Part shown: positions 50,427 to 64,000 of the stretch, piece by piece
How the letters are laid out: every line of letters begins with the position of its first letter
Numbering within the stretch: the first letter of the stretch is position 1
Assembly (NCBI GenBank): GCA_000004985.1
Contig: GG738917.1
Source: Naegleria gruberi
Taxonomy: Eukaryota
DNA length: 64,000 bases
Reading direction: 5' to 3' (one strand)
Program-made: the position numbers and the translations under genes
Notes under the pieces: generated by a model
Told to the model about the DNA's origin: nothing
The model's input: the letters and a program-made list of their open reading frames with translations, nothing else
The model's database searches: none

Positions 50427-52103
50427 TTATGGAGAGCTTTGAATACGATTGACAATGGCTGAAACAAGGGCAGAATTATGAACCTCTGCGCCAATACCCA
50501 ATGACTCTCTATCCTTCAAAATGCAACCACTCTTCTTAATACACAAACCAATAGCTGTTTCCAAGATGGTTCCAGTAGATCTCAAAGAATAGCATGGAGC
50601 AACCTTTTGACAACCATAGTAAAAGTATCTGGTAGCACAAGCAGAGAATATTGCGTTACCTCTAATATCTTGTAAACAATCCAATTGACAGGCAACACAT
50701 GGAGTGTTATCAACACCAGCAAAGGAAGCTCTGTCAGGCATTGGATAATCTGATGGACCAGTAACGTGGAATGAGCTAGGAGCAGAAGAAACCAAACCCT
50801 TTGCAGTGGAAGATAAAGAATTCTTAACTTCGTTGGTAGTTTTCTTTTCTCCTTCACTGGCCTTTTCTTTCAATTCCTTTTTAACTTCTGCAATCTTGGC
50901 AAGTGTGAATTCAGCTTTCAAACCATACTTTTTGTTCTTTAAAGTATTGAAAGCTTTCTTATTGAGAGATTTCAATCCTCTTCCCTTACCACCTTTCTTT
51001 CCTCTTCTGCCACCTCTTCTTCCACCTCTTTTACCACCTTTACCTCTTCTTCCACCCTTTCCTTTACCTCTTTTACCACCTTTTCCACCTCTTCTTCCAC
51101 CTTTGCCTCCTTTCTTTCCACCTTTACCTTTTCCACCTTTTCCTTTACCTCCTTTACCTTTTCCACCTTTTCCACCTTTTCCACCTTTTCCTTTACCTCC
51201 TTTTCCTTTTCCACCTTTACCTCCTTTTCCACCTTTGCCTCCCTTTCTTCCAGAATTTCCACCTTTCTTTCCACCATTTGATTTTCCTCCTCTTTTACCT
51301 CCTTTGGCTCCAACAGAATTTCCACCACCTCTTTTACCACCTTTTCCTCCTCTACCTTGTTGTTTTGATGTGGAACGAGCTGTACGACCACCACTGAGAG
51401 CTCCTCTCTTTCCAGATGGTTTACCACCAGTAGCACCAGCACCAGCACGTGAAGCAGATTTTCCACCTCTTTTACCACCAACACCACGTGAAGCAGATTT
51501 TCCAACAGATCCAGAAGTAGCACCAGTACCAGTACCAGCACCACCACGTGAAGCTCCTTTTCCACCTCCTCTTTTACCACCTCCTCCAGAAGAAGTAGCA
51601 CCACCACGAGATACTGAACCACTTCCTCTTCCAACAGAACTTCTTCCACTACTACCACCACTACTAGCACCTCCTCTTGAACCAGCTGATGATGATGAAG
51701 ATGATCTTCCACCACCACTACTACTAGCTCCTCCACCTCTAGAACCTCCTCCAGAAGATGATCCACCACCTCCTCTGGAACCTCCTCCAGAAGATGCTCC
51801 ACCACCTCGTGATCCACCTCCACCACCAGAAGATGATCCACCACCACCTCTTGAACCTCCACCGCCTCCACCACGTCCTAAAGTGTTGATGTTATCCTCA
51901 ATTAATTCTACATCTTCATCTTCATCAGAAGACAATGTAGCAGCAGCTACTACAACGGTACGTTTTTTTCCTGATGAACTGGTCTTGGCAGGTCCACGAC
52001 ATTGACTTGCTGTGGCATTGACACTTTCACATAGTAAAAAACATTGTATGCTGATAATTGCCAGAATAGCGAAAAGTAAAAGACGAATATTCCACTGTGG
52101 CAT
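50427..52103 (-). CDS. Secreted Gly/Arg/Ser/Lys-rich protein with conserved C-terminal 8-Cys domain (family member 1)
   Basis: ATG 52103; signal peptide MPQWNIRLLLFAILAIISIQCFLLCESVNA; TASQCRGP; dibasic SGKKR; acidic patch DEDEDVELIED; ~250 aa of GGGGSRGGG / GGKGGKGKGGKG repeats. C-terminus: ...FHVTGPSDYPMPDRASFAGVDNTPCVACQLDCLQDIRGNAIFSACATRYFYYGCQKVAPCYSLRSTGTILETAIGLCIKKSGCILKDRESLGIGAEVHNSALVSAIVNRIQSSP, alignable residue-for-residue with members 2 and 3. Confidence 0.75.
   Translation of the reverse strand: MPQWNIRLLLFAILAIISIQCFLLCESVNATASQCRGPAKTSSSGKKRTVVVAAATLSSDEDEDVELIEDNINTLGRGGGGGGSRGGGGSSSGGGGGSRGGGASSGGGSRGGGGSSSGGGSRGGGASSSGGGRSSSSSSAGSRGGASSGGSSGRSSVGRGSGSVSRGGATSSGGGGKRGGGKGASRGGAGTGTGATSGSVGKSASRGVGGKRGGKSASRAGAGATGGKPSGKRGALSGGRTARSTSKQQGRGGKGGKRGGGNSVGAKGGKRGGKSNGGKKGGNSGRKGGKGGKGGKGGKGKGGKGKGGKGGKGGKGKGGKGKGGKGKGGKKGGKGGRRGGKGGKRGKGKGGRRGKGGKRGGRRGGRRGKKGGKGRGLKSLNKKAFNTLKNKKYGLKAEFTLAKIAEVKKELKEKASEGEKKTTNEVKNSLSSTAKGLVSSAPSSFHVTGPSDYPMPDRASFAGVDNTPCVACQLDCLQDIRGNAIFSACATRYFYYGCQKVAPCYSLRSTGTILETAIGLCIKKSGCILKDRESLGIGAEVHNSALVSAIVNRIQSSP
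50990..51330. repeat. Degenerate tandem codon repeats (GGT/GGA/AAA/AGA units) encoding KGGKGKGG / RGGKGG
   Basis: Visible as cctttacctttt / ccaccttttcc periodicity on the + strand. Source of shadow ORFs 50806..52005(+) and 50972..51874(-). Confidence 0.6.
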
Positions 52104-52459
52104 TTTGTTTTTAATGACTTTTTTGCGTTGCGAGAAGTGAAAGTGTCACTACTCAACATTTGATGTGATTTGAAGCTATTTGTGGCGAACTGGAAAGTTT
52201 CTGGACACATTTCGGGTTGAGTTTATTGGATTGGGAAAGAAGAGGACAATTAAACCAATGTATTTAGTTCAAATATTGTAAAGTTTCGTAATCAATAGTA
52301 AGTAGTATTGAAGTGAAACATTCGAATATTTTGGATTAACTCTCATTGTAAATAGAAACATTGTTTAATATTTCTCATATCGGTATATACTTTTATAAAA
52401 TATTACTCCAATTATGAGATTTGATTTTATTCGAAACATTTCTAATAACTCACAAATAT

Positions 52460-53557
52460 TTAAATTCTTCTTTCAATGGCTGAGGTAATATATTGCATTG
52501 CATTTGAAATTGTTCTATTCACTTGTTCTTCATTTCCAATCGATGGATTCACCTCTACCAAATCCATTCCAACAAATTTCGAATATTTTTGACATTTTCT
52601 ACAAATCTTTAATCCATCCTGATGTGAAATTCCATTCTCCACAGCTGTTCCTGTACTTGGTGTAAATTCTGGATCAATACCATCCACGTCAAAACTCAAA
52701 AATAATGGAAATTCTGATTGATTTAAATTCAAGTGTGAAAAACATTCTTCCAAACAATATTCGATTTCTAATTGATGAATTTCACTTGCAGTAAAGTGTT
52801 GAATTTTGAACTTTTTCAAGATTTCTTGTTCGAAAGAATCGACATCTCGAAGACCCAAGTAAGCCAACCGAGAAGAAACTAGGAGATTGATTTCTTCATT
52901 CATCCATTCGAAACCAATGTGTGAATTTCTTTCCTCTCCCAAAATTGATTGACCACAGAGGAAAGCAAGTGGCATACCATGCATATTCTTACTCATTGAA
53001 TCTGATTGGTGTCAAATAGTTTATCGACAAGTGACAGAGTTGAGAGTTTAAATAAAAACAAGAAACAAACCTTTTGGAGTGTTAATGTCTGCATGAGCAT
53101 CCACCCACAGTACTCTTAAATCTGGATATTCCATTAACATGGCATAAATTGAGCCAATTGCCACAGAATGATCTCCACCAATGTTTACTATAAATGGTTT
53201 CTTATTGGATTGAACTTGGAAAATAGTGTTGATTGTTTCGGCAATTTGTTGATTGAAGGAGCCAACTCTTCTCTGATTGAGACAAATCTCCATATCATCA
53301 GCCTCTTTGTCTACCAATGTTGAAGGACTTTTCGAATAATCTGGACTATTACTATTCGAATCTCTCTTTTCATTAATTTTAATAACTGGCAAGTGATTTA
53401 ACAATTGTGTTTGTAGTAAATGATAAGCTCCCAACTCAACACCCTCTCTTCTCTGACCCAAGCCACACCAACTTTCCAGAATTACAACATTCTCATTGTT
53501 TTCCTCTTGTTGATTTCTCATCATGTTATCAATGATATTCATTAGCTGTGGATGCAT
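52460..53557 (-). CDS. Arginase-family (ureohydrolase: arginase/agmatinase-type) enzyme, two exons
   Basis: Exon 1 53557..53071 (ATG 53557; ...IVNIGGDHSVAIGSI...[14 protein letters not shown]); 69-nt intron 53070..53002 (GTTTGTTTCTTG...CACCAATCAG); exon 2 53001..52463 in phase 1 (D-SMSKNMHGMPLAFLCGQ...SFDVDGIDP...GMDLVEVNP). All binuclear-metal ligand motifs (GGDHS, DAHAD, SxDVDxxDP) are present. Compare arginase [25 protein letters not shown]. Confidence 0.85.
53002..53070 (-). other. Spliceosomal intron (69 nt) with GTTTGT donor
   Basis: Splitting restores the arginase DAHADINTP...HGMPLAFL block; phase-1 junction. Confidence 0.8.
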
Positions 53558-54142
53558 CTATGATAACTTGTGTATTAATAAGTTTGTTTTTTTTATGTGG
53601 TGAAGAATACGTTAGAACATCCAGTTCTAAACTCTCACTTTAAAAACACATGTTTGGTTGTGTGAATTGCCAATTTAGATGCAACTTATCTTCTATCGAT
53701 TGGAAACATACCTTAACAAGGATCGCCGTTCACATGTTACTGAAATGTGCGTTCAGTTAACATTGTTTTTAACTCAACAACTTGTCAATGTTCTTGTAGT
53801 ATACTCTCAAATTCATTTAAGAAACCTTAGCCGTGTGGGTGGTACTTTACTGATCCATTGCAGATAAGAGTTGAGCTGTAGTAAGTTACGACATTATTTT
53901 CAGTGAATAGGAAAACTTCCACAACAACATCATAAAGAGATGGTAAGAAAAGAAGTGAATTCATTCTAAGGGAAATTACCAATATTTACCATCCAAATAA
54001 ATCATATCCCTCAATAGTCAAACGAAATAAGCCTCATCCAAGTATGAAACTAGATAATAATGAAGAAACTGTTGCAAAAGAAAATATAATATTCATTCAA
54101 ATTCATCTAAAATTATTGCCTATTAAAATAAACATATCAACA

Positions 54143-55336
54143 TTAAGCAGAATTTCTAATCTTTGCAACAATTGCTTGGACTTTTGCATTGCCTGAAGCT
54201 CTTGGATCAATTCCTAAATCAGCATTAGATTTGAAACTACATCCACTCTTTTCCAAACACAATCCAAGTCCAACCTCTGTAATGTAAGCATTTTCTCTGA
54301 GAGTGTAACATGGTGCTACTTGCTGACATCCATAAAAGTAATATTGCTTTGGGCAGTTAGAAAATACAGAGCCAGCAAAACTTTGGAAATATTGCATGCA
54401 ATCCAATTTACATGCAACACATTCAGATTGTTGCTTTCCAAAGAATGAGTTACGATTTGCGTGAGAGGTTGAAGTTGGACCTGTAATATTAAAACGAGAT
54501 GGATTATAGTCAACTGTTCTTCTTGCACCTTCAGAGAGGGAAGACCTACCTGAGGCTGGTGGTGCTGCTTTAACTGCTGGCTTAACTGGGACCTTTGGTT
54601 TGACTACAACTTTTGGTTTAACTACAACCTTTGGTTTGACAGCTGGTTTGACATTCTTGACCTTACTTTTAACCTTACTCTTAGTCTTTGATTTGGCCTT
54701 TGATTTACTCTTGGACTTACTCTTTGATTTACTCTTTGATTTGCTCTTTGATTTACTGGTTGACTTGGACTTGCTCTTTGACTTACTAGCAGACTTGCTC
54801 TTTGATTTACTTGCTGATGACTTACTAGATTTGGATTTACTAGCAGATGACTTTCCTGATTTACCTGATTTACCAGATTTACCAGCTCCCTTACCAGCTC
54901 CTCTTCCAGAACCCTTACCAGCTCCTCCTCTTCCAGAACCTTTTCCACCTCCTCTACCAGCACCTCCTCTTCCAGCAGATCCACCACGAGATCCAGAACC
55001 TCCTCTTCCTGATCCACCTCTACCACCACCTCCACCTCTACCACCAGAGGAACCTCCACGACCTCCTCCACCGCCTCCACCTCTACCTCCACCTCCGCCT
55101 CCAGAGCCACCTCCTTTACCGAGAGTGAAAGCATCTGAAAGGGTTTCTTCCAATAATTCTTCCTCCTCCAAATCATCAGAAAGTGTAGTTACTCCTCTTT
55201 TAGCAGAACTCTTGGCTGTATTATCTGGGCCTCTACATTGACTTGCTGTTCCTTCAACAACAATACTGTTACCCAATAAAAATACCAACACAAGAGTTGT
55301 TATTAGAAATAAACAGACGAAACAACGACTTGACAT
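54143..55336 (-). CDS. Secreted Gly/Arg/Ser/Lys-rich protein with conserved C-terminal 8-Cys domain (family member 2)
   Basis: ATG 55336; signal peptide MSSRCFVCLFLITTLVLVFLLGNSIVVEG; TASQCRGP; dibasic SAKR; acidic DDLEEEELLEE; GGGSGGGGGGRGGGG.. block; (SK)n / KSKSKS block; KPKVVVKPKVVVKPKVPVKP. C-terminus: ...FNITGPTSTSHANRNSFFGKQQSECVACKLDCMQYFQSFAGSVFSNCPKQYYFYGCQQVAPCYTLRENAYITEVGLGLCLEKSGCSFKSNADLGIDPRASGNAKVQAIVAKIRNSA. Confidence 0.75.
   Translation of the reverse strand: MSSRCFVCLFLITTLVLVFLLGNSIVVEGTASQCRGPDNTAKSSAKRGVTTLSDDLEEEELLEETLSDAFTLGKGGGSGGGGGGRGGGGGGGRGGSSGGRGGGGGRGGSGRGGSGSRGGSAGRGGAGRGGGKGSGRGGAGKGSGRGAGKGAGKSGKSGKSGKSSASKSKSSKSSASKSKSKSASKSKSKSKSTSKSKSKSKSKSKSKSKSKSKAKSKTKSKVKSKVKNVKPAVKPKVVVKPKVVVKPKVPVKPAVKAAPPASGRSSLSEGARRTVDYNPSRFNITGPTSTSHANRNSFFGKQQSECVACKLDCMQYFQSFAGSVFSNCPKQYYFYGCQQVAPCYTLRENAYITEVGLGLCLEKSGCSFKSNADLGIDPRASGNAKVQAIVAKIRNSA
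54590..54900. repeat. Coding tandem repeats: 21-nt x3 (VKPKVVV) and 12/24-nt units (KSKS...)
   Basis: gacctttggtttgactacaac-ttttggtttaactacaac-ctttggtttgacagc; then ctctttgatttact-type repeats through ~54890. Shadow ORFs 54600..55241(+), 54622..55176(-), 54847..55128(+). Confidence 0.6.
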
Positions 55337-55660
55337 TTTTTCTGATAAAGAGTGTCAGTTTGTTGTTGGAGTACGAGGAAGAGACATGATTGGTATGCAG
55401 TAACACATGAGTTTGATTACAATCATCCTTTCCAGTTACTAATTTTCTTATAGATAGATTATAATGAAGGAAATTGCTAATGTTTGTTCAACACTTTAGA
55501 TAGCAACGAAATTGTGTTGTATTTGAAACAATATTGTTATTGTAATCTTGGTTTGATTTGAGTAAAAGGAAATTTGATTTTGATGCATCTAATTTTCAAC
55601 TAGTCATTCCAAATCTGCACATGTGAAATTGTTGTAAATATTATAGTAGGTGAGGTATTA

Positions 55661-57049
55661 TTAAAACAAATCCTCAATGTCCACATTTTCCCATCCTTTG
55701 AAAAATATTCCCTTCTTATTGACATTTAGCATTTTAGCTTCCCATTCTCTGTATCCTTTGATTGGTGCATCAGCGTTTACAATTTTACTGAATACTTTAA
55801 CTCCATTATTAACATTTTCATAAACTCCTGCCAGTAGTTCTAAATCCTGATCAAATATCATATCAACTGTTTTAGCAAATTTGTTTCGTATGAAAGGAAT
55901 CTTGTTCAGAAAATTCAATATGGAGAGGGAGGAATAGAACTTGAATATTACTTTAACTTCACCTTCTCCTGTTGGAATTAAGCAAAATACTTGTGACATT
56001 CTTGGACCTGATCTTTCATTTGCAATATAGTCAGTGGTGTCCATTCTTACAAAGCAAGGTGGAATGAATGATAACTGAACCATAAATTCTGATTTCAGAC
56101 CTGGAATTTTCTTGAATTCTGGTTTTGTGAATCGATAAGTGAAAGAATCTTGATGAATACTTTGATCGTATTGCATTTCTTTTGGAATGAGTCTTCTCGA
56201 TGGATTGTCTGATGGGATATCTTTAGATATTACGAGTTGGCTTTGAATCTGTGTGGCTTGACTTCTCTTTCCAATAGTTCCATCATGTGTAAAATCCAAA
56301 TGAGCAGGGTCAAGCAAATTCTCCAATACAAACGAGTAATGACAAGGTAGGTCTCTTGTGTTTTCTATTAACACTTCTAGTTTTGAAGAATCATCAGTTA
56401 AAAATTCTTCTCTAAATAATTCCAAAGGTATTTGATTAATATCTGCCTTAACCTTATCATTGGGAAATACCCAAATTAGTCCACAACATTCATGAACTTG
56501 TTTTGCTTGGCACTTGATGGTAGAGCACAATCCTTTCATTCTTTCAGACGAAACTGATGGAATTCTAACACATTGTCCTTCTTTTTCAAACCTCCAACCA
56601 TGATAAGCACATTCCAAGGATCTTTTCCCTTCGAATTCTGTAACTTGTCCTGTAGAAAGTTTGGCAGATCTGTGAGGGCATAAATCTTTCACACAAGTAA
56701 TATTGCCATCACTAGTTCTATACAATGCAAGTGGTTCTCCAAATAGCTTGATTGTTTTTGGTTTAGAATCAGTGATGGAAACATCTTTTGAAAGTGCCAC
56801 TGGATACCAAAACAAGGTCATTTCCAAATTTGTAACATCTGATTTGGTTTTAAATGTATCATTAGGAAATTTCTCAATAATATTCTTTTGTTTAAATATG
56901 AACGAAAAATCCAACCAATCAAATAATCGTAGATAATACTTTGATACTACAACCAATCCTCCCACAACGATAGCACCCAATGCTAGGAGCATGCTGATTG
57001 AATATTCCGATCCTAATACTTTACTTCCTATCTTTACGAGTTGTTGCAT
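55661..57049 (-). CDS. Rieske [2Fe-2S] non-heme iron oxygenase, membrane-anchored (PAO/Neverland/KshA-like)
   Basis: ATG 57049; N-terminal TM LGAIVVGGLVVVSKYYL; Rieske motif CPHRSAKLSTGQVTEFEGKRSLECAYHGWRF (CxH...CxxH); mononuclear Fe motif ENLLDPAHLDFTHDG (D..H....H). 462 aa. Confidence 0.8.
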   Translation of the reverse strand: MQQLVKIGSKVLGSEYSISMLLALGAIVVGGLVVVSKYYLRLFDWLDFSFIFKQKNIIEKFPNDTFKTKSDVTNLEMTLFWYPVALSKDVSITDSKPKTIKLFGEPLALYRTSDGNITCVKDLCPHRSAKLSTGQVTEFEGKRSLECAYHGWRFEKEGQCVRIPSVSSERMKGLCSTIKCQAKQVHECCGLIWVFPNDKVKADINQIPLELFREEFLTDDSSKLEVLIENTRDLPCHYSFVLENLLDPAHLDFTHDGTIGKRSQATQIQSQLVISKDIPSDNPSRRLIPKEMQYDQSIHQDSFTYRFTKPEFKKIPGLKSEFMVQLSFIPPCFVRMDTTDYIANERSGPRMSQVFCLIPTGEGEVKVIFKFYSSLSILNFLNKIPFIRNKFAKTVDMIFDQDLELLAGVYENVNNGVKVFSKIVNADAPIKGYREWEAKMLNVNKKGIFFKGWENVDIEDLF

Positions 57050-57437
57050 TTTTTAAAAGAAATTTGATCTTACTTAATCTTGCCTTTACATCATGGCTAA
57101 TTGATCAAGTCGAGTGATAGAAGCTAGGAGGAGATTTAAATTACAACACTAACAAAACGCACTTGAGAAAATCAACAACCAGAAAATATTAGCCTTAAAC
57201 TTTAAGCATTTTTAATCTTAAAAAATATTGATGAAGAGAAGTAAGAAAATGGAAATTCTTCTTACAATTAATTCATAAGAAGTTGATAGGAGAGCTTATT
57301 ATCAATGTCCTTTCAATGTCCACTCAATGTCCACCTAGCTGGAGATGCGAATGATGTCCTCGGTAATGAAATATTAGGAATCCGAAAACCATCATCATAT
57401 TAGACAATTACACTTCATTGAATATTATTTAAACAAA

Positions 57438-58256
57438 ATGACTCAAGGAGAAGAAACATCTGGTTTGAGATTTTTCTCTAGAAACAAAAGCAAAGCTTGG
57501 GCAGAAAAGTTCTTCCTTGCCTATGGCCCTATTTGGATGCTTTACTTTGTCTTTCTGATTTATTATGAAATTTATGAAGGTGCCTCGAAACTTGGTTGGA
57601 CAATGTTTGGTGTCATAATGGCAACTCCTTGTGTTATGTATCCATTGATGTTTCCAGGAAAGGCAGACAGCAAGTTACCAATCACTGAAAGATATTGGTT
57701 TAAGGCTAATCTTTGGATTTTATTTTTCAATTTTGTTGGAAATTATTTCTGGACTCACTACTTTTTCAATCTACTTGGAGCTAGATATACTTTGGAGGCA
57801 TATAGTATCAATGATATTCCTTATTTGATGTTTTTCTGCACCCAAGCTTATTTCACTTTTTATTTCACATTTAGTAATGTTCTATTGAGAATGATTTATA
57901 CTGGAATGAAAGAATCAAGAGGGAGAACTGTCTTTGTTGTATTGTTCCTTTGTGCATTTTGCTATTTCACAGCCTATATGGAAACACTCACAATCCAACA
58001 TTTCAAATATTACACACACAAAAATAGGGATGCAATGTTAAAGTACGGTTCAATTTTCTATGCTCTATACTTTATTGTTGGATTTCCAATGTATTTCAGA
58101 GTGGATGAAGAGGAGAAGGAGAAGAAATTTTCCACATGGAAAGTTGTCACTGAGAGCTTGGCATCATGCATGTTAGTGACTATATTGCTTGACTTTTGGA
58201 GATTGATTATTGGAGGAATCATTCCAGATATTCCTCAATGCAATTGGAAAAATTAA
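57438..58256 (+). CDS. CPI1: Cycloeucalenol cycloisomerase (CPI1; opens the 9beta,19-cyclopropane ring in cycloartenol-route sterol synthesis)
   Basis: 272 aa, multi-TM. KANLWILFFNFVGNYFWTHYFFNLLGARYTLEAY matches, as I recall it, the plant CPI1 block ANLWIIVFSYVGNYFWTHYFFKVLGASYTF; AYMETLTIQHFKYY / AYLETIAIANFPYY and YALYFIVGFPMYFRVDE / YAIYFIVSFPMFFRMDE also align. Confidence 0.8.
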   Translation: MTQGEETSGLRFFSRNKSKAWAEKFFLAYGPIWMLYFVFLIYYEIYEGASKLGWTMFGVIMATPCVMYPLMFPGKADSKLPITERYWFKANLWILFFNFVGNYFWTHYFFNLLGARYTLEAYSINDIPYLMFFCTQAYFTFYFTFSNVLLRMIYTGMKESRGRTVFVVLFLCAFCYFTAYMETLTIQHFKYYTHKNRDAMLKYGSIFYALYFIVGFPMYFRVDEEEKEKKFSTWKVVTESLASCMLVTILLDFWRLIIGGIIPDIPQCNWKN

Positions 58257-58262
58257 ATAAAT

Positions 58263-59063
58263 TTACAAGTACTTTCTATAATCCTCCTTAGTTCTGTGTA
58301 CCAGCTTTTCCTCAGCTTTACAACTTTTACAAGTCAGAATACACTGTCGTGTCTGGACTGGATCAAACGAAACTGAAATCATGAAATGATCACAATCCAG
58401 TTGTCTCCTTTTTTCATTATCAATTTCTGATCGATGTTCATTATCCATCAAGCCATAGCCCTGCTCAGCTGCTTGAAGAGCTTTCGTTCCCTTTCGTGTG
58501 CTTCTCTTAAAATTATCATATTCTTCCTGGAAAGCATAAATGTACGAAGTGTAAGAGCGGAATTGTTCTCTAAGTTTCATATTTCTATTTGTAAATTTAA
58601 TTCTCCTGTTGAGTAAGGCAAAGTAAAGTTTCTGAAAAACCAAATGTTGTTCTGGTTTCATATCAGATGGAATAAACTTTTTTTGAAATCCAAAAATGTT
58701 TCGTGGATCTTTTAACTGAAACATGTTTTCAATTTCTTTTTCCAAAGTTTTGCCCTCCTTTATGAATAAGGCAGCATGATCCCTTTCTTCCTCTGTGGAA
58801 ATTATTTTACCAAATGTTCTTTCCAATAGATATTTCTGGAAAGGAAGAGAATAAATAATGTTTCTAATTTTTCTATCAATAAGGACATAGACTGTGTAGA
58901 GATCTTTGATTTCAAAATAATTTAGTATCACTATCCATATTTCTTCCAAATGAATTTTGGTAAATATTGTTTCTGTTAAAACTTTAGGTTTCGGTTTCTT
59001 GTTAGATTTCTTAGGGATGGTATTCAACAAGTAGTCTTCGTCTAACAATGCAAATGAAGACAT
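58263..59063 (-). CDS. Hypothetical protein with N-terminal F-box-like motif and C-terminal Cys cluster
   Basis: 266 aa, ATG 59063. LEEIWIVILNYFEIKDLYTVYVLIDRKIRN is F-box-like. C-terminal CDHF...CILTCKSC. Confidence 0.4.
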   Translation of the reverse strand: MSSFALLDEDYLLNTIPKKSNKKPKPKVLTETIFTKIHLEEIWIVILNYFEIKDLYTVYVLIDRKIRNIIYSLPFQKYLLERTFGKIISTEEERDHAALFIKEGKTLEKEIENMFQLKDPRNIFGFQKKFIPSDMKPEQHLVFQKLYFALLNRRIKFTNRNMKLREQFRSYTSYIYAFQEEYDNFKRSTRKGTKALQAAEQGYGLMDNEHRSEIDNEKRRQLDCDHFMISVSFDPVQTRQCILTCKSCKAEEKLVHRTKEDYRKYL

Positions 59064-59164
59064 TTTTTGATTATCCTAATTTTAAATCTGATCTTGTAAC
59101 TGTGATGATCATCCTCAAAGTGTGAAGTTTCAATTTCAAACAGTCAACTTGCAAAAAGAGCTGT

Positions 59165-59851
59165 TTATTCCACATTACAAAAAGATGTTCCAACAAAAAC
59201 AGCATCAGTATTGGAGAAAGGTTCAAGTGTTAGCAATTCTCTTGGTTTGAAATACTTTTTAACATCGGTGATTGTTTCTTGGGTCCATTCTACAGATTGT
59301 TGAACGTATCCTTCAGGTTTGTGTAGTACAATATAAAAATCTCCACCTTCTTTAAGGAATAATTTGGCATTCTCTGTCATTGCTTTGTGAGTACCATTTG
59401 TCATTATGATGTCCACTTTTTCAGGAATTTCTGATTGATATTCAGATGGATTATTTGCACTTCCACTAATTGCAATAAGATTATTTCTTTGTGATTGCAA
59501 TTTTGCAACAATTTGATAGTCAGATTCAGAACTATTAACACAATAAACTTTTCCACTAGTAGAAATAATATCCGAAATAAAAGATAAGGTAATTGGTGCA
59601 ACATCAATACACAATATCTTTCCTCCTGGTTTGACACTCATAAAGTGCAAACCAGACACAATGCTGGCAGCCAGGCGACAATCCACTCTCCATTTTCTAT
59701 ATTCAGTTCCGTTAATTGTAACGATTTCATCAAAATCAAAAACTTCAGGAATATTTGGTGCATAGTTTACAGTACACAATACATGGAATGGCTCTTCAGG
59801 ACTTGTTGTGATGAACATATTTGGAAATCTGTGTGGTTCAATTGTTGACAT
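59165..59851 (-). CDS. Divergent fibrillarin-like methyltransferase-fold protein (no GAR domain; SAM-binding motif degenerate)
   Basis: Track ORF 59165..60076 overlaps the upstream BTB gene; internal ATG at 59851 (MSTIEPHRFPNMF...). Aligns along the fibrillarin catalytic domain: IEPHRF (VEPHRH), YRKWRVDCRLAASIVSGL (YRAWNPFRSKLAAAILGG), KPGGKILCIDVAPITLSFISDIISTSGKVYCVNSSE ([36 protein letters not shown]), ELLTLEPFSNTDAVFVG (EQLTLEPYERDHAVVVG). Confidence 0.6.
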   Translation of the reverse strand: MSTIEPHRFPNMFITTSPEEPFHVLCTVNYAPNIPEVFDFDEIVTINGTEYRKWRVDCRLAASIVSGLHFMSVKPGGKILCIDVAPITLSFISDIISTSGKVYCVNSSESDYQIVAKLQSQRNNLIAISGSANNPSEYQSEIPEKVDIIMTNGTHKAMTENAKLFLKEGGDFYIVLHKPEGYVQQSVEWTQETITDVKKYFKPRELLTLEPFSNTDAVFVGTSFCNVE

Positions 59852-59903
59852 TTTTTTTTGATGATAAATCAACGGAAGGATTGGTTGTTTTGCAATGTTA
59901 CCT

Positions 59904-61367
59904 TCATTGTAAAATGCAATTATTTGTTGAGGATGACAGCAAAGATTGCACTCTCTTGAAGTTTGTGAAATGTTGAAGGTGTTTCTTGTAGGATTCGTAG
60001 TTAGCTTTCTCCTTTTCATACTTTTCAAGTTCTGTGTAGTAATAGGAAGGAGGCCACACATTTGTTTTGATTTCAATCAAATCTTCTTCCTCTAGAGAAT
60101 TCTGAATGAGTGGTAAATAGTTTGCATAATTGTTTGTCATATAGTAGAGGCATAGTTTTCGTAATTGTTTGGCATTGTAAAGTTTAGAAAACAAGTAGAG
60201 AGTTACAATTTCTTCACTGCCATTTTTTGCATTCTCTTCATTGATAGATTTCGATATGAAAACTTCACATTGAGTTTCAAGATGATTCATGTTATATAGG
60301 TGAGCTATGGCTAAAATTGTACACACAGAATTGGAATCAAATACAGGTTGTCTGTGATAGACATGTTGTAGAAAGGCCTCGCATCCTTTGATTTGATCTT
60401 CAATGGAATTAGTTAATTCTTGACCTTCAAATAGATTAATTTCAGTCATGGAAGAAGAGCTCTCAATAAAGCCATCTGTGAACATAACCTTAAAGACATC
60501 ACTGCACACAAATAGAAAACATTTGTTGGCGTATCTGTAGTTATCTCCAATTTTGAATTGAACATCAGCATACTCTTTCTTTCCAAAGAAGTTTGTGTTT
60601 AGTTTCGAATAGAAATCCTGCATAATATTTTCAGATCCCTCATTAAACAAATCACACTTATCGTAAAAGTTTTTCAGAGATGGTGCGTCGAATAAGAGTG
60701 ATAATTCATCAATTCTTCCTTTCAGGAATTTCTTCTCTAGATTAATAGTTTTCCCACAGTAAGTCAATTCTAGTATGGTTATAAATTCTTGTGTTGATAT
60801 AGATTCTACTAGCTCAAGTTTGAAAATTTTCTCCTCATAAAGTATGGTCTTAAATAAAGTGGAGTACTCAGAATAGAGCTCCGGTATTTCTTCTATCTTA
60901 TCGTTTGCAGCAAGATATTTCAATTTAGTGAATAAATTTTCCAATACTTTCGAGCAAGAACAGCTCAGAATAATACTATGAGCATATAGATTTTCTATTT
61001 CATTATTCTCATAATTCATTCCAATAATATGTACATCAGAAAATGCAGAATTATTGAGTAGTGATTGATTATTCTCAAATGAAAATCCAATTCTTTCTAA
61101 CGGTTGAGGTTTTTCTCTTTTCTCTGGTAATCGAGGACATTTCCTCACAGGAGGTGGAAGACAAGTGGAAACAAGGAGTTTCAAAGTGGATACTTTTGTT
61201 TCCTGATACGCTGCATTTATCACTCGATGCATGCACAAAGTTACATTAATATCCAAATCCGAACTTATGAGATAACTTGCACAAACATTATCCTCATTCT
61301 TTTTCACCACATTCATAATATCCTCCTCAATTATTGATCTTTGCAAATCAAAATTTTCATTCATCAT
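59904..61367 (-). CDS. Double BTB/POZ (plus BACK-like) domain protein
   Basis: 487 aa, ATG 61367. BTB 1 around FSDVHIIGMNYENNEIENLYAHSIILSCSCSKVLENLF. BTB 2 plus BACK around YADVQFKIGDNYRYANKCFLFVCSDVFKVMF...LAIAHLYNMNHLETQCEVFI...LRKLCLYYMTNN. Confidence 0.7.
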   Translation of the reverse strand: MMNENFDLQRSIIEEDIMNVVKKNEDNVCASYLISSDLDINVTLCMHRVINAAYQETKVSTLKLLVSTCLPPPVRKCPRLPEKREKPQPLERIGFSFENNQSLLNNSAFSDVHIIGMNYENNEIENLYAHSIILSCSCSKVLENLFTKLKYLAANDKIEEIPELYSEYSTLFKTILYEEKIFKLELVESISTQEFITILELTYCGKTINLEKKFLKGRIDELSLLFDAPSLKNFYDKCDLFNEGSENIMQDFYSKLNTNFFGKKEYADVQFKIGDNYRYANKCFLFVCSDVFKVMFTDGFIESSSSMTEINLFEGQELTNSIEDQIKGCEAFLQHVYHRQPVFDSNSVCTILAIAHLYNMNHLETQCEVFISKSINEENAKNGSEEIVTLYLFSKLYNAKQLRKLCLYYMTNNYANYLPLIQNSLEEEDLIEIKTNVWPPSYYYTELEKYEKEKANYESYKKHLQHFTNFKRVQSLLSSSTNNCILQ

Positions 61368-61959
61368 TAAATCACATTTTGTACAAACTAATACTATTTT
61401 CTATAAATTTGTGGATTCAAATATTGCAAAAATACCTACACATGAACTATCAGATTTTAAACAATTGGGAATCCAAATTTTATCCACATTCTCCAATGTT
61501 TTCGGTTGATCAATTGCAAATCTTTCAATTCATGAATAATTGCAACTTGACGTTAAACTTACAATATTAAAATTACATCACAATCAAATTTATCATCAAT
61601 TGTACCAATCTATTCAAATTTAATTTCAAATTTAATTCAAAATATTAAATCACACCTACATGAAAACTAAGGAGATACGATTGATCACCAGATCTGAAAC
61701 TTGTTACTCCTGTACTAATTTCATCATTATTCCTAATTAATTTGTTCCGATCGTCAATACTACCAACAGAATGCTTACCCTCTTTTATTGGTTACACATC
61801 GTAGGAGAGATTGTTTTCCAACGCCTTCATCTCCTAAAATTTTGACTTTCAGAATAAGTGATGCCATTTTTTATAAATTATAAATTAAATAAATTTTAAC
61901 GGCAAGTATTGATCCAAACTTTACAAAAAAAAATGACACGAAGAGGATGTCGTCTCACT

Positions 61960-62870
61960 TGTTCTAATCGATTTTATTACATCACGATGATCATCTAAAT
62001 AATTCACCACTCATTAAACAAGATCCGAAAACAAAAGACTTCATTTTCCTATCGATTTGAAAATAGTGCTTTTTATTTCAGTGCCGTAAAATGATGATAT
62101 TAAAATTTCCAATCGATACAATTGTTTGATTGGTATAACATCAGACTCGGTTTATATTTTTGATAAAAAGACAAAAGAAGTGATCAATTCGTTTGCTTTT
62201 GGAGGAGTTTTGGTGATGAGTATTGATGATGAATGAGCATGATGAAATATATGTTATTTCAGATCGAGCAAATGAACATTCCTACAGTGTTGAAAAGTTT
62301 AAATTGGGAGAATTTATTAGAAACAAGAATGCTCCAGCTGTTAAACCAGTTTGGATTACATCAGATACATGTTCTAATACGTATGGAAGTGTAGTATTTA
62401 ATGGTGTGAACACTAGATATTTAATTATTCTTGACAATTTTGAAAGTAATTTAAAAATATTTGATTATGAGACTGGATCTTTGATTAATAATACAATTTT
62501 TTCAGTTTATCCATATGCTTATTCATTAGGAAAGATTTCAAACAAGGAAATAGTTGTTGGATGCTCTAAGGTTTATTGAAATTTATGAAATCGATGAGAA
62601 TTCATTTGGATTAGACAAACAAGCACTCAAGTTGATCATTTCTAAACCCATTACAGATTATCCAGAATTTTTTTCTATAACACAATGAATCGAAAGATTA
62701 TTTTTTCAAATGTGTACGACAGTTCTATAACAGTTTGGAGTCAGGATAAATTAGAGCTAGTCCATCAGCATCAAGAACACCTTGATGGTATTTCAGGAAC
62801 GTGTTTGGATGTAAATACAGGAGAGCTCTTTGTTTGTTTTTCTAAGGGGGTTAGCATATTCAAGTAGAGT
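61960..62870 (+). pseudogene. Fragmented ORFs resembling pieces of a beta-propeller/WD-like protein: possible pseudogene or multi-exon gene I cannot assemble
   Basis: Track ORFs 62223..62579 and 62685..62867, plus an upstream fragment (...GITSDSVYIFDKKTKEVINSFAFGGVLVMSIDDE), sit in different frames with stops between and no clean GT..AG joins. Confidence 0.25.
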
Positions 62871-62905
62871 GATTATTTTCCAATTTGGATAAGCATTCAA
62901 ATTTA

Positions 62906-64000
62906 TTATCCAGCCCTTATAGCTCCAACCATGGTTGATAAGATCTTTTGAGCTGATGCCCTCTTACTCAAATTCAGTTTCTTTCTATCAACAGTACATC
63001 TATTCTTTGTAATACACATTGCAATAGCAACTTGGATGATATTATCTGAGGCAGTTCTTTCATAACATGGAGCTTTTTGTTGACATCCATAATAATAATA
63101 TTGCTGTCCGCATGTGGAGAAGATAGATGAGAATCCACCAAATGGTTGAGTACAATCAATCTTACAAGCAACACAAGTATTACGTTCAGAACCAGTGAAT
63201 AATGATCTTTCTCCTTGATCATCACTTGAAGGACCAGTCATATCAAAAAAGCTTGGATTTTGAGCTGCAATTTGCTTGGCAAGAGTATCAATTGCATTAT
63301 ATGTGATGTGTGTATCCTTTCCTCCATTGCCATTTGCCACAGCAGTTGGTACAGGTTTTACAACAACTGTTGGTGGAGCTACAACAGCAGCAACGGTTAC
63401 CTTTTTAACATTGTTAACCAATGGATCTCTGGTTACCTTGGTAGTTTTGGCTTTAGCCTTACTCTTTGATTTACTCTTTGATTTACTCTTACTCTTGGAC
63501 TTTCCTTTAGATTTTCCTTTAGATTTTCCTTTAGATTTACCTTTAGACTTTCCTTTAGATTTACCCTTTGAAGACTTTCCTTTGGATTTACCTTTGGATT
63601 TTCCAGAAGATTTACCCTTAGATTTACCAGATGACTTTCCTCTTGAACCCTTGCTGCCACCTTTGGAGCCACCTTTACTGCCTCTAGAACCACCTCTGGA
63701 TCCACCTTTACTGCCTCTTGAGCCACCTTTGCTTCCTCTGCTTCCACCTCTAGAACCTCCACTTCTGCTTCCTCTGGATCCTCCTCTTGAACCTCCACTT
63801 CTAGAACCACCTCTTGAGCCACCTCTGCCTCCTCCTCCACGGCCACCACCACGGCCTCCTCCACCTCTGCCTCCACCACCACGACCACCTCCACCTCCTC
63901 TACCTCCAAGAGTGGTTGCTGCATGTGTTGCTCTTTCATAATTTTCCAAATCTTCCTCATCCAAATCGTGTCCAAGAACGAGTGTAGTTCTGGTTTTACT
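62906..64000 (-). CDS. Secreted Gly/Arg/Ser/Lys-rich protein with conserved C-terminal 8-Cys domain (family member 3), 5'-partial
   Basis: Track ORF 62906..63964 begins on TTG; the frame stays open to position 64000 (SKTRTTLVLGHDLDEEDLENYERATHAATTLGGRGGGGGRGGGG...), so the signal-peptide end lies outside the window. (GGSRGGSR)n, (KGGSRGS)n, (SKGKSKGK)n, then C-terminus ...FFDMTGPSSDDQGERSLFTGSERNTCVACKIDCTQPFGGFSSIFSTCGQQYYYYGCQQKAPCYERTASDNIIQVAIAMCITKNRCTVDRKKLNLSKRASAQKILSTMVGAIRAG. Confidence 0.7.
   Translation of the reverse strand, partial: SKTRTTLVLGHDLDEEDLENYERATHAATTLGGRGGGGGRGGGGRGGGGRGGGRGGGGRGGSRGGSRSGGSRGGSRGSRSGGSRGGSRGSKGGSRGSKGGSRGGSRGSKGGSKGGSKGSRGKSSGKSKGKSSGKSKGKSKGKSSKGKSKGKSKGKSKGKSKGKSKGKSKSKSKSKSKSKSKAKAKTTKVTRDPLVNNVKKVTVAAVVAPPTVVVKPVPTAVANGNGGKDTHITYNAIDTLAKQIAAQNPSFFDMTGPSSDDQGERSLFTGSERNTCVACKIDCTQPFGGFSSIFSTCGQQYYYYGCQQKAPCYERTASDNIIQVAIAMCITKNRCTVDRKKLNLSKRASAQKILSTMVGAIRAG
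63440..63660. repeat. Coding 15-nt tandem repeats (cctttagattttcctttagatt...) encoding SKGKSKGK
   Basis: Direct reading of the + strand. Source of shadow ORFs 63276..63941(+) and 63433..63975(-). Confidence 0.6.

What the first reader, a model, noticed from the sequence alone, without database searches (positions are those of the whole stretch)
50427..64000. Tandem family of three secreted, hyper-cationic Gly/Arg/Ser/Lys-rich proteins sharing an unassigned C-terminal 8-cysteine domain
Three minus-strand genes within 13.6 kb (50427-52103, 54143-55336, 62906-window end) share the same architecture. Each has a signal peptide, SQCRGP, a dibasic site (SGKKR / SAKR / SKTR), a short acidic patch, and 200-300 aa of disordered GGGSRGGG, KGGKGKGG or (SK)n repeats that differ in detail between copies. 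All three end with a ~100-aa domain conserved residue-for-residue: TGPS...R.SF.G.....CVAC(K/Q)(L/I)DC.Q.........S.C...YY(Y/F)YGCQ(Q/K)(V/K)APCY...........(L/M)C..K..C, i.e. 8 Cys = four putative disulfides, followed by an amphipathic tail. I cannot match this cysteine spacing to CFEM, granulin, EGF, TNFR, chitin-binding or minicollagen Cys modules. The linker has diverged while the termini have not, which is the signature of a constrained folded module on an intrinsically disordered polycationic stalk. Candidate roles: cyst or cell-wall matrix protein, adhesive or biomineralisation scaffold, or polyanion-binding or antimicrobial precursor processed at the dibasic site. The Gly/Arg repeats mimic RGG RNA-binding boxes but the signal peptides argue against an intracellular role.
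Basis: seen in the sequence. Interest (0 to 1): 0.85.

Follow-up and report, generated by a model that had tools for sequence, protein, structure and literature searches.

The report
Orphan secreted 8-cysteine proteins, Naegleria
Three real but apparently unannotated Naegleria gruberi genes encode secreted proteins, each a long, very positively charged floppy chain ending in a cysteine-rich domain that matches no known family or solved structure; they are most likely cyst-wall or matrix building blocks, though an antibacterial role is not excluded.

Summary
The window is Naegleria gruberi. Three minus-strand ORFs (50427-52103, 54143-55336, 62906 to the window end) are paralogues. Each has an acidic patch, a 194-354 aa Gly/Ser/Arg/Lys low-complexity chain (net charge +54 to +83) and a ~130-aa C-terminal module with 8 invariant Cys. 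The first two also show a signal peptide and a TASQCRGP motif; the third is cut before them.

A profile search of 1.84 billion proteins found 34 relatives. All named ones are uncharacterised Heterolobosea proteins (N. fowleri, N. lovaniensis, N. gruberi, Willaertia, Acrasis), often in tandem. N. fowleri FDP41_002008 sits beside the same TIMELESS neighbour as the first gene.

The middle region is hypervariable across the family: polycationic low-complexity, cationic amphipathic helices, neutral or acidic.

Function is untested. I favour (about 0.4) a cyst-wall/matrix lectin-like role, convergent with Acanthamoeba Leo and Entamoeba Jacob lectins. One Acrasis member is named "developmentally-regulated". 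An antimicrobial-precursor role is the main rival (about 0.27). The products of the first two genes are absent from public protein sets.

The parts
50427..52103 (-). m1: complete CDS (558 aa plus stop); positional counterpart of N. fowleri FDP41_002008
   Evidence: ORF. It lies next to TIMELESS, as in N. fowleri locus L002. Its domain is 49% identical to P0044.
52014..52103 (-). m1 signal peptide (residues 1-30, predicted cleavage after VNA)
   Evidence: Hydrophobic core LLFAILAII, KD mean 3.48. The position aligns with the signal peptides of the whole family.
51876..52013 (-). m1 conserved N-terminal module: TASQCRGP (lone Cys), SGKKR, acidic stretch ending in TLG
   Evidence: Coordinates. 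The motif is conserved across the family.
50817..51878 (-). m1 polycationic low-complexity chain (354 aa: 145 Gly, 50 Ser, 58 Lys, 33 Arg, 7 Asp+Glu)
   Evidence: Composition. Degenerate DNA tandem repeats with periods of 9-63 nt.
50430..50816 (-). m1 C-terminal module: pre-domain helix, F..TGP, 8-Cys alpha/beta domain, terminal helix
   Evidence: Alignments. Profile hit 4.4e-34.
54143..55336 (-). m2: complete CDS (397 aa plus stop)
   Evidence: ORF. Full-length AF2 model.
55250..55336 (-). m2 signal peptide (residues 1-29, predicted cleavage after VEG)
   Evidence: Hydrophobic core. AF2 models a helix at residues 3-23.
55118..55249 (-). m2 N-terminal module: TASQCRGP, SAKR, acidic helix DDLEEEELLEETLSDAFTLG
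   Evidence: Coordinates. Residues 31-40 reach pLDDT 77 although they sit next to disorder.
54539..55120 (-). m2 polycationic chain (194 aa, no acidic residue), ordered Gly/Arg, then Gly/Ser/Lys, then (SK)n, then Lys/Pro/Val
   Evidence: pLDDT below 50.
54146..54538 (-). m2 C-terminal module (the sequence modelled by AF2)
   Evidence: AF2 gives pLDDT 90.8 and pTM 0.82. No fold match.
62906..64000 (-). m3: CDS truncated at its 5' end by the window edge (364 aa seen, begins SKTR)
   Evidence: Translation.
63293..63907 (-). m3 polycationic chain (205 aa) with the same Gly/Arg, then Ser/Lys, then Pro/Val order as m2
62909..63292 (-). m3 C-terminal module
   Evidence: Profile hit 4.5e-34.

Best explanation
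SHOWN. These are three genuine, old paralogous N. gruberi genes. They belong to a Heterolobosea-restricted family of secreted proteins. The family is defined by a signal peptide, a short N-terminal module ([ST]-x-[ST]-x-C-R-x-P with one unpaired Cys, a basic residue, a hydrophobic VLS-like patch and an acidic helix ending in TL), a hypervariable middle, and a C-terminal ~130-aa disulfide-rich alpha/beta module with no detectable relatives.

INFERRED. The proteins enter the secretory pathway and are deposited outside the cell as wall or matrix components, most plausibly of the cyst wall.
- The 8-Cys module would be the anchoring, lectin-like element. It has a conserved run of aromatic residues ([RQ]-Y-Y-Y-Y-G-C) on a beta-strand. 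This is the kind of platform that carbohydrate-binding modules use on cellulose or chitin.
- The lone N-terminal Cys would allow intermolecular disulfide cross-links.
- The long polycationic disordered chain would fill and glue the matrix by binding polyanionic partners. The acidic N-terminal patch would mask it during transport.

This logic would be convergent with Acanthamoeba Leo lectins (a lineage-unique 8-Cys domain, with or without a long basic Thr/Lys/His spacer) and with Entamoeba Jacob lectins.

The confidence below applies to the functional reading. The identity-level claims (real genes, orphan family) I hold at about 0.9.
For: Real genes and family:
- One open frame across the domain, conserved in other species.
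- 34 relatives at E<=1e-3 and 22 at E<=1e-10 in 1.84 billion proteins. All named ones are Heterolobosea 'hypothetical' proteins.
- Adjacency to TIMELESS is shared with N. fowleri.

Orphan fold:
- pLDDT 90.8 and pTM 0.82.
- No Pfam or PDB sequence hit.

Secretion:
- Hydrophobic N-terminal cores occur throughout the family.
- Phobius predicts a signal peptide for Acrasis AKO1_005987.
- The submitters named KAL0481132.1 'developmentally-regulated protein with signal peptide'.

Wall or matrix role:
- Published precedent exists for lineage-unique 8-Cys or 6-Cys lectin domains with optional long basic or Ser/Thr spacers in multigene cyst-wall families (PMC6541295).
- The Acrasis paper treats novel secreted aggregation-induced proteins as candidates for matrix or spore coat, and development there ends in encystment (PMC11589745).
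- Family members have neutral or acidic spacers as well as cationic ones, as wall-protein spacers do.
- The aromatic run at domain positions 57-60 is 100/94/69/100% aromatic across 36 sequences.
- The mature protein has an odd Cys count, 9.
- The Lys/Pro/Val repeats (VVVKPKVVVKPKVPVKP) resemble those of plant proline-rich wall proteins (own knowledge).
- The order of composition along the chain is shared by m2, m3 and N. fowleri P0044 despite only ~40-46% domain identity.
- Family accessions are absent from the N. fowleri trophozoite proteome and secretome tables held here. This is weak evidence.
Against: - There is no expression, localisation or binding datum for any Naegleria member.
- The Acrasis evidence is only a submitter's product name on a distant member. 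Its library-wide E-value is 1.9e-4, although all 8 Cys and the motifs are present.
- At least five paralogues carry strongly amphipathic Arg/Lys helices (muH 0.8-1.2). These look like membrane-active peptides and are hard to place in a wall.
- Roughly 60% of full-length members carry a net cationic middle. That suggests selection for charge as such, which is typical of antimicrobial polycations.
- Cellulose and chitin are neutral, and no polyanionic wall partner is known.
- The carbohydrate-binding idea rests on conserved aromatics only. I could not inspect model coordinates.
Confidence: 0.4

Rival explanations
1. Antimicrobial or prey-killing pro-proteins with a cathelicidin-like logic. A conserved disulfide-rich carrier domain and an acidic pro-piece would escort a hypervariable polycationic effector. 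A protease would release the effector, in the phagosome or outside the cell, at the basic site or at the TL boundary. The effector would then bind and permeabilise or agglutinate bacteria.
For: - The layout of signal peptide, acidic patch and cationic segment is that of many antimicrobial-peptide precursors (own knowledge: defensins, Hydra arminin and periculin, eosinophil proMBP).
- Paralogues FDP41_000343 and FDP41_000344, NAEGRDRAFT_63246 and Willaertia ABK040_001764 carry Arg/Lys helices with muH 0.8-1.2 over tens of residues.
- Most members are net cationic whatever the chemistry of the chain.
- The family shows tandem arrays and fast divergence.
- The organisms feed on bacteria.
Against: - Chains of 200-350 aa of non-amphipathic Gly/Ser/Lys/Arg (muH mostly below 0.6) are unlike typical antimicrobial peptides.
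- Several members have neutral or acidic middles.
- The acidic patch is conserved even where there is no cationic segment to neutralise.
- The basic 'cleavage' site is not consistently dibasic.
- To my knowledge no linear cationic antimicrobial peptide is known from amoebae, whose known effectors are saposin-like.
- Family accessions were not found in the N. fowleri secretome tables held here.
Confidence: 0.27
2. The 8-Cys domain itself is the active part, acting as a secreted ligand, toxin, adhesin or recognition module. The middle region is then a largely neutral, slippage-driven spacer whose cationic composition has no specific role.
For: - Only the terminal modules are conserved family-wide.
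- Spacer length ranges from about 0 to 350 aa and spacer charge varies in sign.
- Near-identical N. gruberi copies differ only by indels of GRGG and SGRN units.
- In Acrasis the domain sits at the N-terminus of ~500-aa proteins with long C-terminal extensions (P0067, P0068).
Against: - The order Gly/Arg, then Ser/Lys, then Lys/Pro/Val is shared by m2, m3 and N. fowleri P0044 despite deep divergence.
- There is a complete or near-complete lack of acidic residues over 194-354 aa.
- Codon usage is as in other genes or more biased.
- All of these argue for constraint on the chain.
Confidence: 0.18
3. An adhesive, coacervate or biomineral scaffold resembling silaffins, sandcastle-worm cement or mussel proteins. 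The polycation would condense with a polyanion to form glue, cyst-pore plugs or mineral.
For: (SK)n and KGG repeats resemble silaffin and cement-protein compositions (own knowledge). The proteins are secreted and extremely basic.
Against: - There is no Tyr (the DOPA precursor) in the chain.
- Naegleria is not known to make silica or mineral.
- Many family members have non-cationic chains.
- No partner polyanion gene is evident in the window.
Confidence: 0.1
4. A gene-model artefact: the opposite-strand Pro-rich ORFs are the real genes, or the loci are non-coding repeats.
For: Long plus-strand ORFs overlap the low-complexity parts. The m1 and m2 products are absent from public protein sets.
Against: - The plus-strand frames carry 4-9 stops across each domain region.
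- The minus-frame domain is conserved in at least five species, with E-values down to 1e-32.
- It folds at pLDDT 91.
- Signal peptides and start codons are in place.
Confidence: 0.01

Closest known systems
Acanthamoeba castellanii Leo lectins (cyst-wall, cellulose-binding; PMC6541295)
   Same: Both have a signal peptide and a lineage-restricted domain with eight Cys. Both are multigene families. In both, some members have no spacer and others have a long basic low-complexity spacer. Both come from free-living, cyst-forming amoebae.
   Different: Leo has two 8-Cys domains per protein; here there is one, at the C-terminus, plus a conserved N-terminal module. Leo's spacer is Thr/Lys/His-rich, not Gly/Ser/Arg/Lys. 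No Acanthamoeba protein was named among the profile hits, so there is no sign of common ancestry. Binding and localisation are shown for Leo and untested here.
Entamoeba Jacob lectins (6-Cys chitin-binding domains with Ser/Thr-rich spacers)
   Same: Cys-rich lectin domains are joined to low-complexity spacers that vary between strains and contain protease sites (as described in PMC6541295). Here too, near-identical copies differ by repeat indels, and a basic site precedes the chain.
   Different: Jacob domains have six Cys, occur in tandem, and the proteins are acidic and glycosylated. No homology was detected.
Plant glycine-rich and hybrid proline-rich wall proteins (class II GRPs; HyPRPs with the 8CM domain)
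   Same: The order is the same: signal peptide, then a Gly- or Pro-rich repetitive region, then a C-terminal domain with eight Cys. Lys/Pro/Val repeats occur in both.
   Different: The 8CM pattern C..C..CC..CXC..C..C and its all-alpha LTP fold are absent. Here the spacing is C-x2-C-x3-C-x12-14-C-x8-C-x5-C-x16-C-x5-C in a mixed beta/alpha fold. There is no Pfam LTP or Hydrophob_seed hit.
Cathelicidins, and Hydra periculin and arminin (antimicrobial-peptide precursors)
   Same: A conserved disulfide-containing part is joined to a hypervariable cationic part. An anionic stretch precedes the cationic one. The proteins are secreted.
   Different: The cathelin domain is N-terminal, has a cystatin-like fold and four Cys. 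The cationic parts there are 12-100 aa and are proteolytically released, which is not shown here. No homology was detected.
Naegleriapores, amoebapores and other saposin-like proteins
   Same: These are Naegleria secreted or granular Cys-rich effectors made from larger precursors. The first C-x2-C and last C-x5-C spacings recall saposin ends.

Membership tests
Unnamed Heterolobosea 8-Cys secreted family (FDP41_002008, NAEGRDRAFT_71995, ABK040_001764 and others) | C-terminal module with F..TGP, C-[VI]-A-C-x-[VLI]-D-C, F-x-x-C, [RQ]-Y-Y-Y-Y-G-C, P-C, G-[ILV]-C and N-G-C motifs (8 Cys) | tested here: met
   All three window proteins carry every motif. Family-profile hits are 1e-34.
Unnamed Heterolobosea 8-Cys secreted family | [quoted passage not shown] | tested here: met
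   Met for m1 and m2. m3 is cut by the window edge after the motif position, so only its basic site and acidic stretch are seen.
Plant 8CM / LTP-prolamin superfamily (HyPRP) | Cys pattern C-Xn-C-Xn-CC-Xn-CXC-Xn-C-Xn-C in an all-alpha fold | tested here: not met
   There is no CC or CXC pair. The predicted fold has five beta-strands. No Pfam hit.
Saposin-like proteins (SapB; naegleriapore) | Six Cys in three nested disulfides within a five-helix bundle | tested here: not met
Erv1/ALR sulfhydryl oxidase (Pfam Pox_E10) | Redox-active CxxC in an FAD-binding four-helix bundle, scoring above Pfam's gathering score | tested here: not met
   Only m1 hits: 15.1 bits as the whole protein, against a cut-off of 27. 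It is also the only one of 36 domain sequences to hit (E=0.0024). The CxxC lies in a predicted beta-strand. The first Cys is absent in the 6-Cys subfamily.
Chitin-binding modules CBM14 (peritrophin-A) and CBM18 (hevein) | Six- or eight-Cys consensus spacing and a match to the Pfam model | tested here: not met
   No Pfam hit for any of 36 members. The spacing x14, x8, x5, x16, x5 does not fit the CBM14 consensus x13-20, x5-6, x9-19, x10-14, x4-14 (consensus recalled from own knowledge; spacing). No structural match.
Acanthamoeba Leo 8-Cys lectins | Sequence homology to the Leo 8-Cys domain; cellulose binding; endocyst and ostiole localisation | tested here: inconclusive
   No Acanthamoeba protein was named among the 34 hits of the library-wide profile search. 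I had no Leo sequence for a direct profile comparison. Binding and localisation are not testable with these tools.
Cathelicidins | N-terminal cathelin (cystatin-like) domain with four Cys, and a C-terminal peptide released by proteolysis | tested here: not met
   No cathelicidin or cystatin Pfam hit. The domain order is reversed. Whether processing occurs is not testable here.
RGG/GAR RNA-binding proteins | An intracellular (nuclear) protein with RGG boxes next to RRM, KH or methyltransferase domains | tested here: not met
   A signal peptide is present and there is no RNA-binding domain. The true fibrillarin-family ORF nearby (59165-60076) is a separate gene.

The most novel reading that the evidence does not exclude
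The C-terminal module is a genuinely new disulfide-stabilised alpha/beta fold confined to Heterolobosea. The family would then be a previously unrecognised class of protist polycationic effectors: a conserved carrier domain that presents or releases hypervariable cationic chains (Gly/Arg/Lys polymers or Arg-rich amphipathic helices) to kill or agglutinate bacterial prey or competitors. That would be a cathelicidin-like innate-defence system invented independently in excavate amoebae, including the pathogen N. fowleri.
Probability: 0.25. Interest if true: 0.7.

Novelty: new variant of a known kind. Interest (0 to 1): 0.5.

Why it matters
- Nothing is known at the molecular level about Naegleria cyst-wall or matrix proteins (own knowledge; my literature searches found none). 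The cyst is the resistant stage of the genus that includes the lethal N. fowleri. A lineage-specific, abundant, secreted family would give candidate diagnostic or wall-disruption targets, as Jonah, Leo and Jacob lectins did for Acanthamoeba and Entamoeba.
- The module is a confidently predicted fold with no neighbour in the PDB, so it is a good target for structure determination and for a new Pfam entry.
- The products of m1 and m2 are missing from a 15-billion-protein collection that does hold neighbouring N. gruberi genes. This suggests that low-complexity-rich secreted genes are a blind spot of the reference annotation.
- The family offers a natural series of polycationic disordered chains and amphipathic helices on one scaffold. 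That is useful for studying how charge-patterned secreted disordered regions evolve.

Tried and rejected
1. Word-indexed homology search. With the three-domain alignment it found nothing. With the m2 C-terminal 150 aa it found only one N. fowleri protein. The exhaustive profile search was needed to find the family.
2. Exact look-ups of the m1 and m2 products and of the Rieske neighbour's ORF gave 'not on record', so I could not recover the N. gruberi scaffold or m3's 5' end.
4. The Pox_E10/Erv1 hit (E=0.021, or 0.0024 for the domain alone) was rejected as sub-threshold, found in a single member and incompatible with the fold.
6. Literature: no paper in the library mentions any family accession. 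Searches on cyst wall/glycine-rich, antimicrobial peptide/cationic, encystation transcriptomes and Naegleria proteomics/secretome found nothing on this family. Family accessions are absent from the held supplements of the N. fowleri proteome and secretome and of the cyst-versus-trophozoite RNA-seq paper. The old Werth and Kahn cyst-wall paper is not held. The cationic cell-penetrating-peptide preprint that mentions Naegleria proved irrelevant.
7. dN/dS of domain against linker was not attempted. At 39-49% amino-acid identity, synonymous sites are saturated. Near-identical N. gruberi copies were compared instead.
8. I looked by eye for a shared promoter motif upstream of m1 and m2 and saw nothing obvious. 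I did not pursue it.
9. The Logan contig for an N. fowleri member (L004) has no poly(A) tail, so it is not proof of transcription.
10. Disulfide topology could not be read because model coordinates are not returned. Only C31-C62 could be inferred, from their joint loss in the 6-Cys subfamily.

Full report
ORGANISM AND CONTEXT

The window has about 33% G+C and long, nearly intron-free ORFs. The Rieske oxygenase ORF at 55661-57049(-) is 100% identical to a predicted protein of Naegleria gruberi. So the window is N. gruberi nuclear DNA.

Pfam assigns the neighbours of the finding as follows:
- TIMELESS at 47115-50407(+).
- An arginase split by a 51-nt gap at 52460-53557(-).
- A fibrillarin-family ORF at 59165-60076(-).
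- A BTB protein at 59904-61367(-).

These are unrelated housekeeping-type genes. The three genes are clustered on one strand within 13.6 kb, but they are not strictly tandem.

CHECKING THE OBSERVATION

The three minus-strand ORFs exist as described. I call them m1 (50427-52103, 558 aa), m2 (54143-55336, 397 aa) and m3 (62906 to the window edge, 364 aa visible).

From N- to C-terminus, m1 and m2 contain:
- a hydrophobic signal-peptide core with small residues at -3/-1;
- TASQCRGP;
- a basic site (SGKKR in m1, SAKR in m2);
- an acidic stretch that ends in TLG;
- a chain of 354 aa (m1) or 194 aa (m2) made almost only of Gly, Ser, Lys and Arg, plus Pro and Val near its end;
- a conserved C-terminal module.

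m3 starts in the window at SKTR and shows everything downstream of that point. Its signal peptide and Cys motif lie outside the window.

The chains hold 91, 55 and 58 Lys+Arg against 7, 0 and 2 Asp+Glu. Pro-protein pI is 10.4-11.2 and net charge is +54 to +83. The C-terminal modules share 35 invariant positions out of 122, including eight Cys. Pairwise tblastn E-values are 1e-17 to 1e-33.

Only the minus-strand frame is open through the domain; the other five frames have 2-13 stops. Codon usage matches other genes in the window, with GGG, CGG and TCG avoided. The overlapping plus-strand Pro-rich ORFs are therefore mirror images of GGN, AGA and AAR codons, not genes.

A profile scan of the whole window finds exactly these three copies.

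THE C-TERMINAL MODULE HAS NO KNOWN RELATIVES

- Pfam gives nothing above threshold for the full proteins or for any of 36 family domains. The single Pox_E10 hit (15 bits against a cut-off of 27, one member only) is noise.
- A profile search of all PDB sequences gives nothing better than E=1.3.
- AlphaFold2 with a 36-sequence family alignment gives a confident model: mean pLDDT 90.8 and pTM 0.82, with five beta-strands followed by three helices.
- In the full-length m2 model the same region keeps pLDDT 86-96 and gains a preceding helix at residues 269-277. Residues 42-232 fall below 50, which fits disorder.
- The AlphaFold-database library was unavailable. 'Orphan fold' is therefore provisional.

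Saposin-like, 8CM/LTP, CBM14, hevein and Erv1 assignments were each considered and fail on Cys pattern, fold or profile score (see the membership table).

THE FAMILY

A profile search of 1.84 billion representatives found 34 proteins at E<=1e-3 and 22 at E<=1e-10. Every one that carries a source name is an uncharacterised heterolobosean protein:
- N. fowleri: FDP41_002008, 000343, 000344, 006351 and 008784.
- N. lovaniensis: C9374_011957.
- N. gruberi: NAEGRDRAFT_71995, 50935, 59834, 63246 and 73150.
- Willaertia magna: ABK040_001764.
- Acrasis kona: several.

The rest come from metagenomes. At least one of those contigs is clearly eukaryotic and carries four members in tandem. N. fowleri also has tandem pairs.

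N. fowleri FDP41_002008, the best hit, lies next to TIMELESS and near the same Mei2-type RRM and Arb2 genes as in the window. This makes m1 its positional counterpart, although the relative orientation differs.

The three window genes are as far from each other (39-46% in the domain) as from the N. fowleri gene (40-49%). So the duplications are old.

The exact products of m1 and m2 are not in the 15-billion-protein collection. The m2 C-terminus finds no identical N. gruberi entry, although neighbouring N. gruberi proteins are present. These genes therefore appear to be missing from, or mis-modelled in, the public annotation.

WHAT IS CONSERVED AND WHAT IS NOT

Conserved family-wide:
- the signal peptide;
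- [ST]-x-[ST]-x-C-R-x-P just after the predicted cleavage site, which gives nine Cys in most mature proteins, an odd number;
- a basic residue followed by a hydrophobic VLS-like patch;
- an acidic stretch ending in TL;
- a pre-domain helix (LSxxAKxIV);
- F..TGP;
- the 8-Cys domain and its terminal helix.

Residues 31-40 of m2, which hold the Cys motif, reach pLDDT 77 next to disordered sequence. This hints that the motif docks on the folded part, but I could not inspect coordinates.

A distant subfamily lacks Cys31 and Cys62 together: all 9 sequences without Cys31 also lack Cys62. This implies a Cys31-Cys62 disulfide.

The middle region is hypervariable:
- Gly/Ser/Arg/Lys polymers in the window genes, FDP41_002008 and NAEGRDRAFT_71995.
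- Strongly amphipathic Arg/Lys helices (muH 0.8-1.2) in FDP41_000343 and 000344, NAEGRDRAFT_63246 and Willaertia.
- Short neutral Ser/Thr-rich linkers in N. lovaniensis and in the second N. fowleri gene at the syntenic locus.
- An acidic linker in the FDP41_006351 type.
- In Acrasis, ~500-aa proteins with the domain at the N-terminus and a long C-terminal extension.

Near-identical N. gruberi copies differ only by indels of GRGG and SGRN units. The chains therefore evolve by repeat slippage.

Even so, m2, m3 and the N. fowleri protein share the same order along the chain: acidic, then Gly/Arg, then Gly/Ser/Arg, then (SK)n, then Lys/Pro/Val. This argues for constraint on charge patterning.

HOW IT MOST LIKELY WORKS

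Shown: these are real genes, they are targeted for secretion by sequence criteria, and they combine a disordered polycation with a folded disulfide-rich module of an orphan family. Everything beyond that is inference.

I rank a wall or matrix role first, at about 0.4, for these reasons:
- It is the published pattern for protist cyst-wall lectins. Acanthamoeba Leo lectins have a signal peptide and lineage-unique 8-Cys domains. Some of the 16 genes carry a long basic Thr/Lys/His-rich spacer. [quoted passage not shown] Entamoeba Jacob lectins combine 6-Cys domains with variable low-complexity spacers that contain protease sites (PMC6541295).
- The family tolerates cationic, neutral and acidic spacers, as wall-protein spacers do.
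- The domain keeps a run of four aromatic residues on a predicted strand (100/94/69/100% aromatic). This is the kind of platform carbohydrate-binding modules use.
- The odd Cys count would allow intermolecular cross-links.
- One Acrasis member was named by its submitters 'developmentally-regulated protein with signal peptide'. The genome paper treats novel secreted aggregation-induced proteins as candidates for matrix or spore coat, and development in Acrasis ends in encystment (PMC11589745).
- No family accession appears in the N. fowleri trophozoite proteome or secretome tables I could read. This is weak evidence.

The main rival, at about 0.27, is an antimicrobial or prey-killing pro-protein with cathelicidin-like logic. 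The amphipathic Arg-rich helices of several paralogues, the order of acidic then cationic segments, the prevalence of net positive charge and the bacterivorous lifestyle all point that way. Against it stand the 200-350-aa non-amphipathic chains, the non-cationic members, and the conservation of the acidic patch where there is nothing to neutralise.

Two further readings cannot be excluded: the domain is the effector and the spacer is neutral, or the protein is an adhesive or coacervate scaffold. The 'wrong strand' artefact is effectively excluded.

COMPARISON AND NOVELTY

In kind, this is the familiar 'signal peptide, low-complexity chain, Cys-rich domain' secreted protein. Its closest analogues are Leo and Jacob lectins, plant glycine-rich and hybrid proline-rich wall proteins, and antimicrobial-peptide precursors.

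It is a member of none of them. Each defining Cys pattern, fold or profile was tested and not met, or, for Leo, could only be tested indirectly.

The family itself exists in databases only as hypothetical proteins. No paper in the searched library mentions any of its accessions.

I therefore rate it a new variant of a known kind, built on a domain that is new as far as PDB, Pfam and BFVD can tell. Interest is moderate at 0.5. The finding is solid, unannotated and relevant to a neglected pathogen's resistant stage. However, orphan secreted Cys-rich families are common in protists, and the function is not yet established.

Noticed in passing
window 59165-60076 (-) and 59904-61367 (-): A fibrillarin-family ORF (Pfam PF01269, E=1.6e-31) shows no Gly/Arg box in the ORF as listed. 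It overlaps the 3' end of a BTB-domain ORF by about 170 nt, so the true gene models probably use other starts or introns. It is curious that a GAR-less fibrillarin sits 3 kb from secreted Gly/Arg-rich genes; this is probably coincidence.
   Followed up: partly
window 52460-52996 and 53048-53557 (-): An arginase-family gene is split into two ORFs by a 51-nt gap, most likely a short intron. It lies between m1 and m2.
   Followed up: partly
window 47115-50407 (+) and 50427 (-): TIMELESS is split into two ORFs (47115-48701 and 48731-50407). Its stop codon is only 19 nt from the stop codon of the convergent m1, leaving almost no 3' intergenic space for two terminators or poly(A) signals.
   Followed up: no
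window 55661-57049 (-): For this Rieske/PaO-type oxygenase, the best hits after Heterolobosea are bdelloid rotifers (36-38% identity) and proteins that sources name as phenylpropionate-dioxygenase-like ring-hydroxylating dioxygenases. This is a patchy distribution that may reflect horizontal transfer.
   Followed up: no
L006 7632-10546 (JGI metagenome 3300037860, 166-kb eukaryotic contig): Four same-strand tandem copies of the distant 6-Cys form of the domain lie next to RTEL1 and PPP5 genes. Tandem arrays are thus a general habit of the family, in an unidentified environmental eukaryote.
   Followed up: partly
L002 9004-9756 (N. fowleri VFQX01000028.1): A second, short (250 aa), non-cationic family member lies immediately upstream of FDP41_002008. 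Its domain is 57.5% identical to that of its neighbour, which suggests an independent duplication in the N. fowleri lineage.
   Followed up: partly
L004 (Logan SRR29240419 contig, 1204 nt): This contig extends the N. fowleri FDP41_006351-type protein upstream to a proper signal peptide (MNTF...VQATSSECRRP). The deposited 223-226-aa models are therefore truncated at the N-terminus. This member has an acidic middle region, not a cationic one.
   Followed up: partly
P0085, P0058, P0084 (N. gruberi NAEGRDRAFT_71995 and near-identical copies): These copies are 93-99% identical and differ almost only by insertions or deletions of GRGG and SGRN repeat units. This looks like repeat-length polymorphism between alleles or strains. 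EFC35896 also carries an unrelated 5' extension that looks like a mis-fused gene model.
   Followed up: partly
window 11832-12689 and 12707-13525 (+); 32909-33592 and 33633-34262 (+): Further genes appear as two adjacent same-strand ORFs separated by 17-40 nt, presumably short introns. One pair looks HSP70-like by eye (not tested); the other matches the N. fowleri gene with a precomputed Arb2 Pfam hit. Any ORF-based reading of this genome will split such genes.
   Followed up: no
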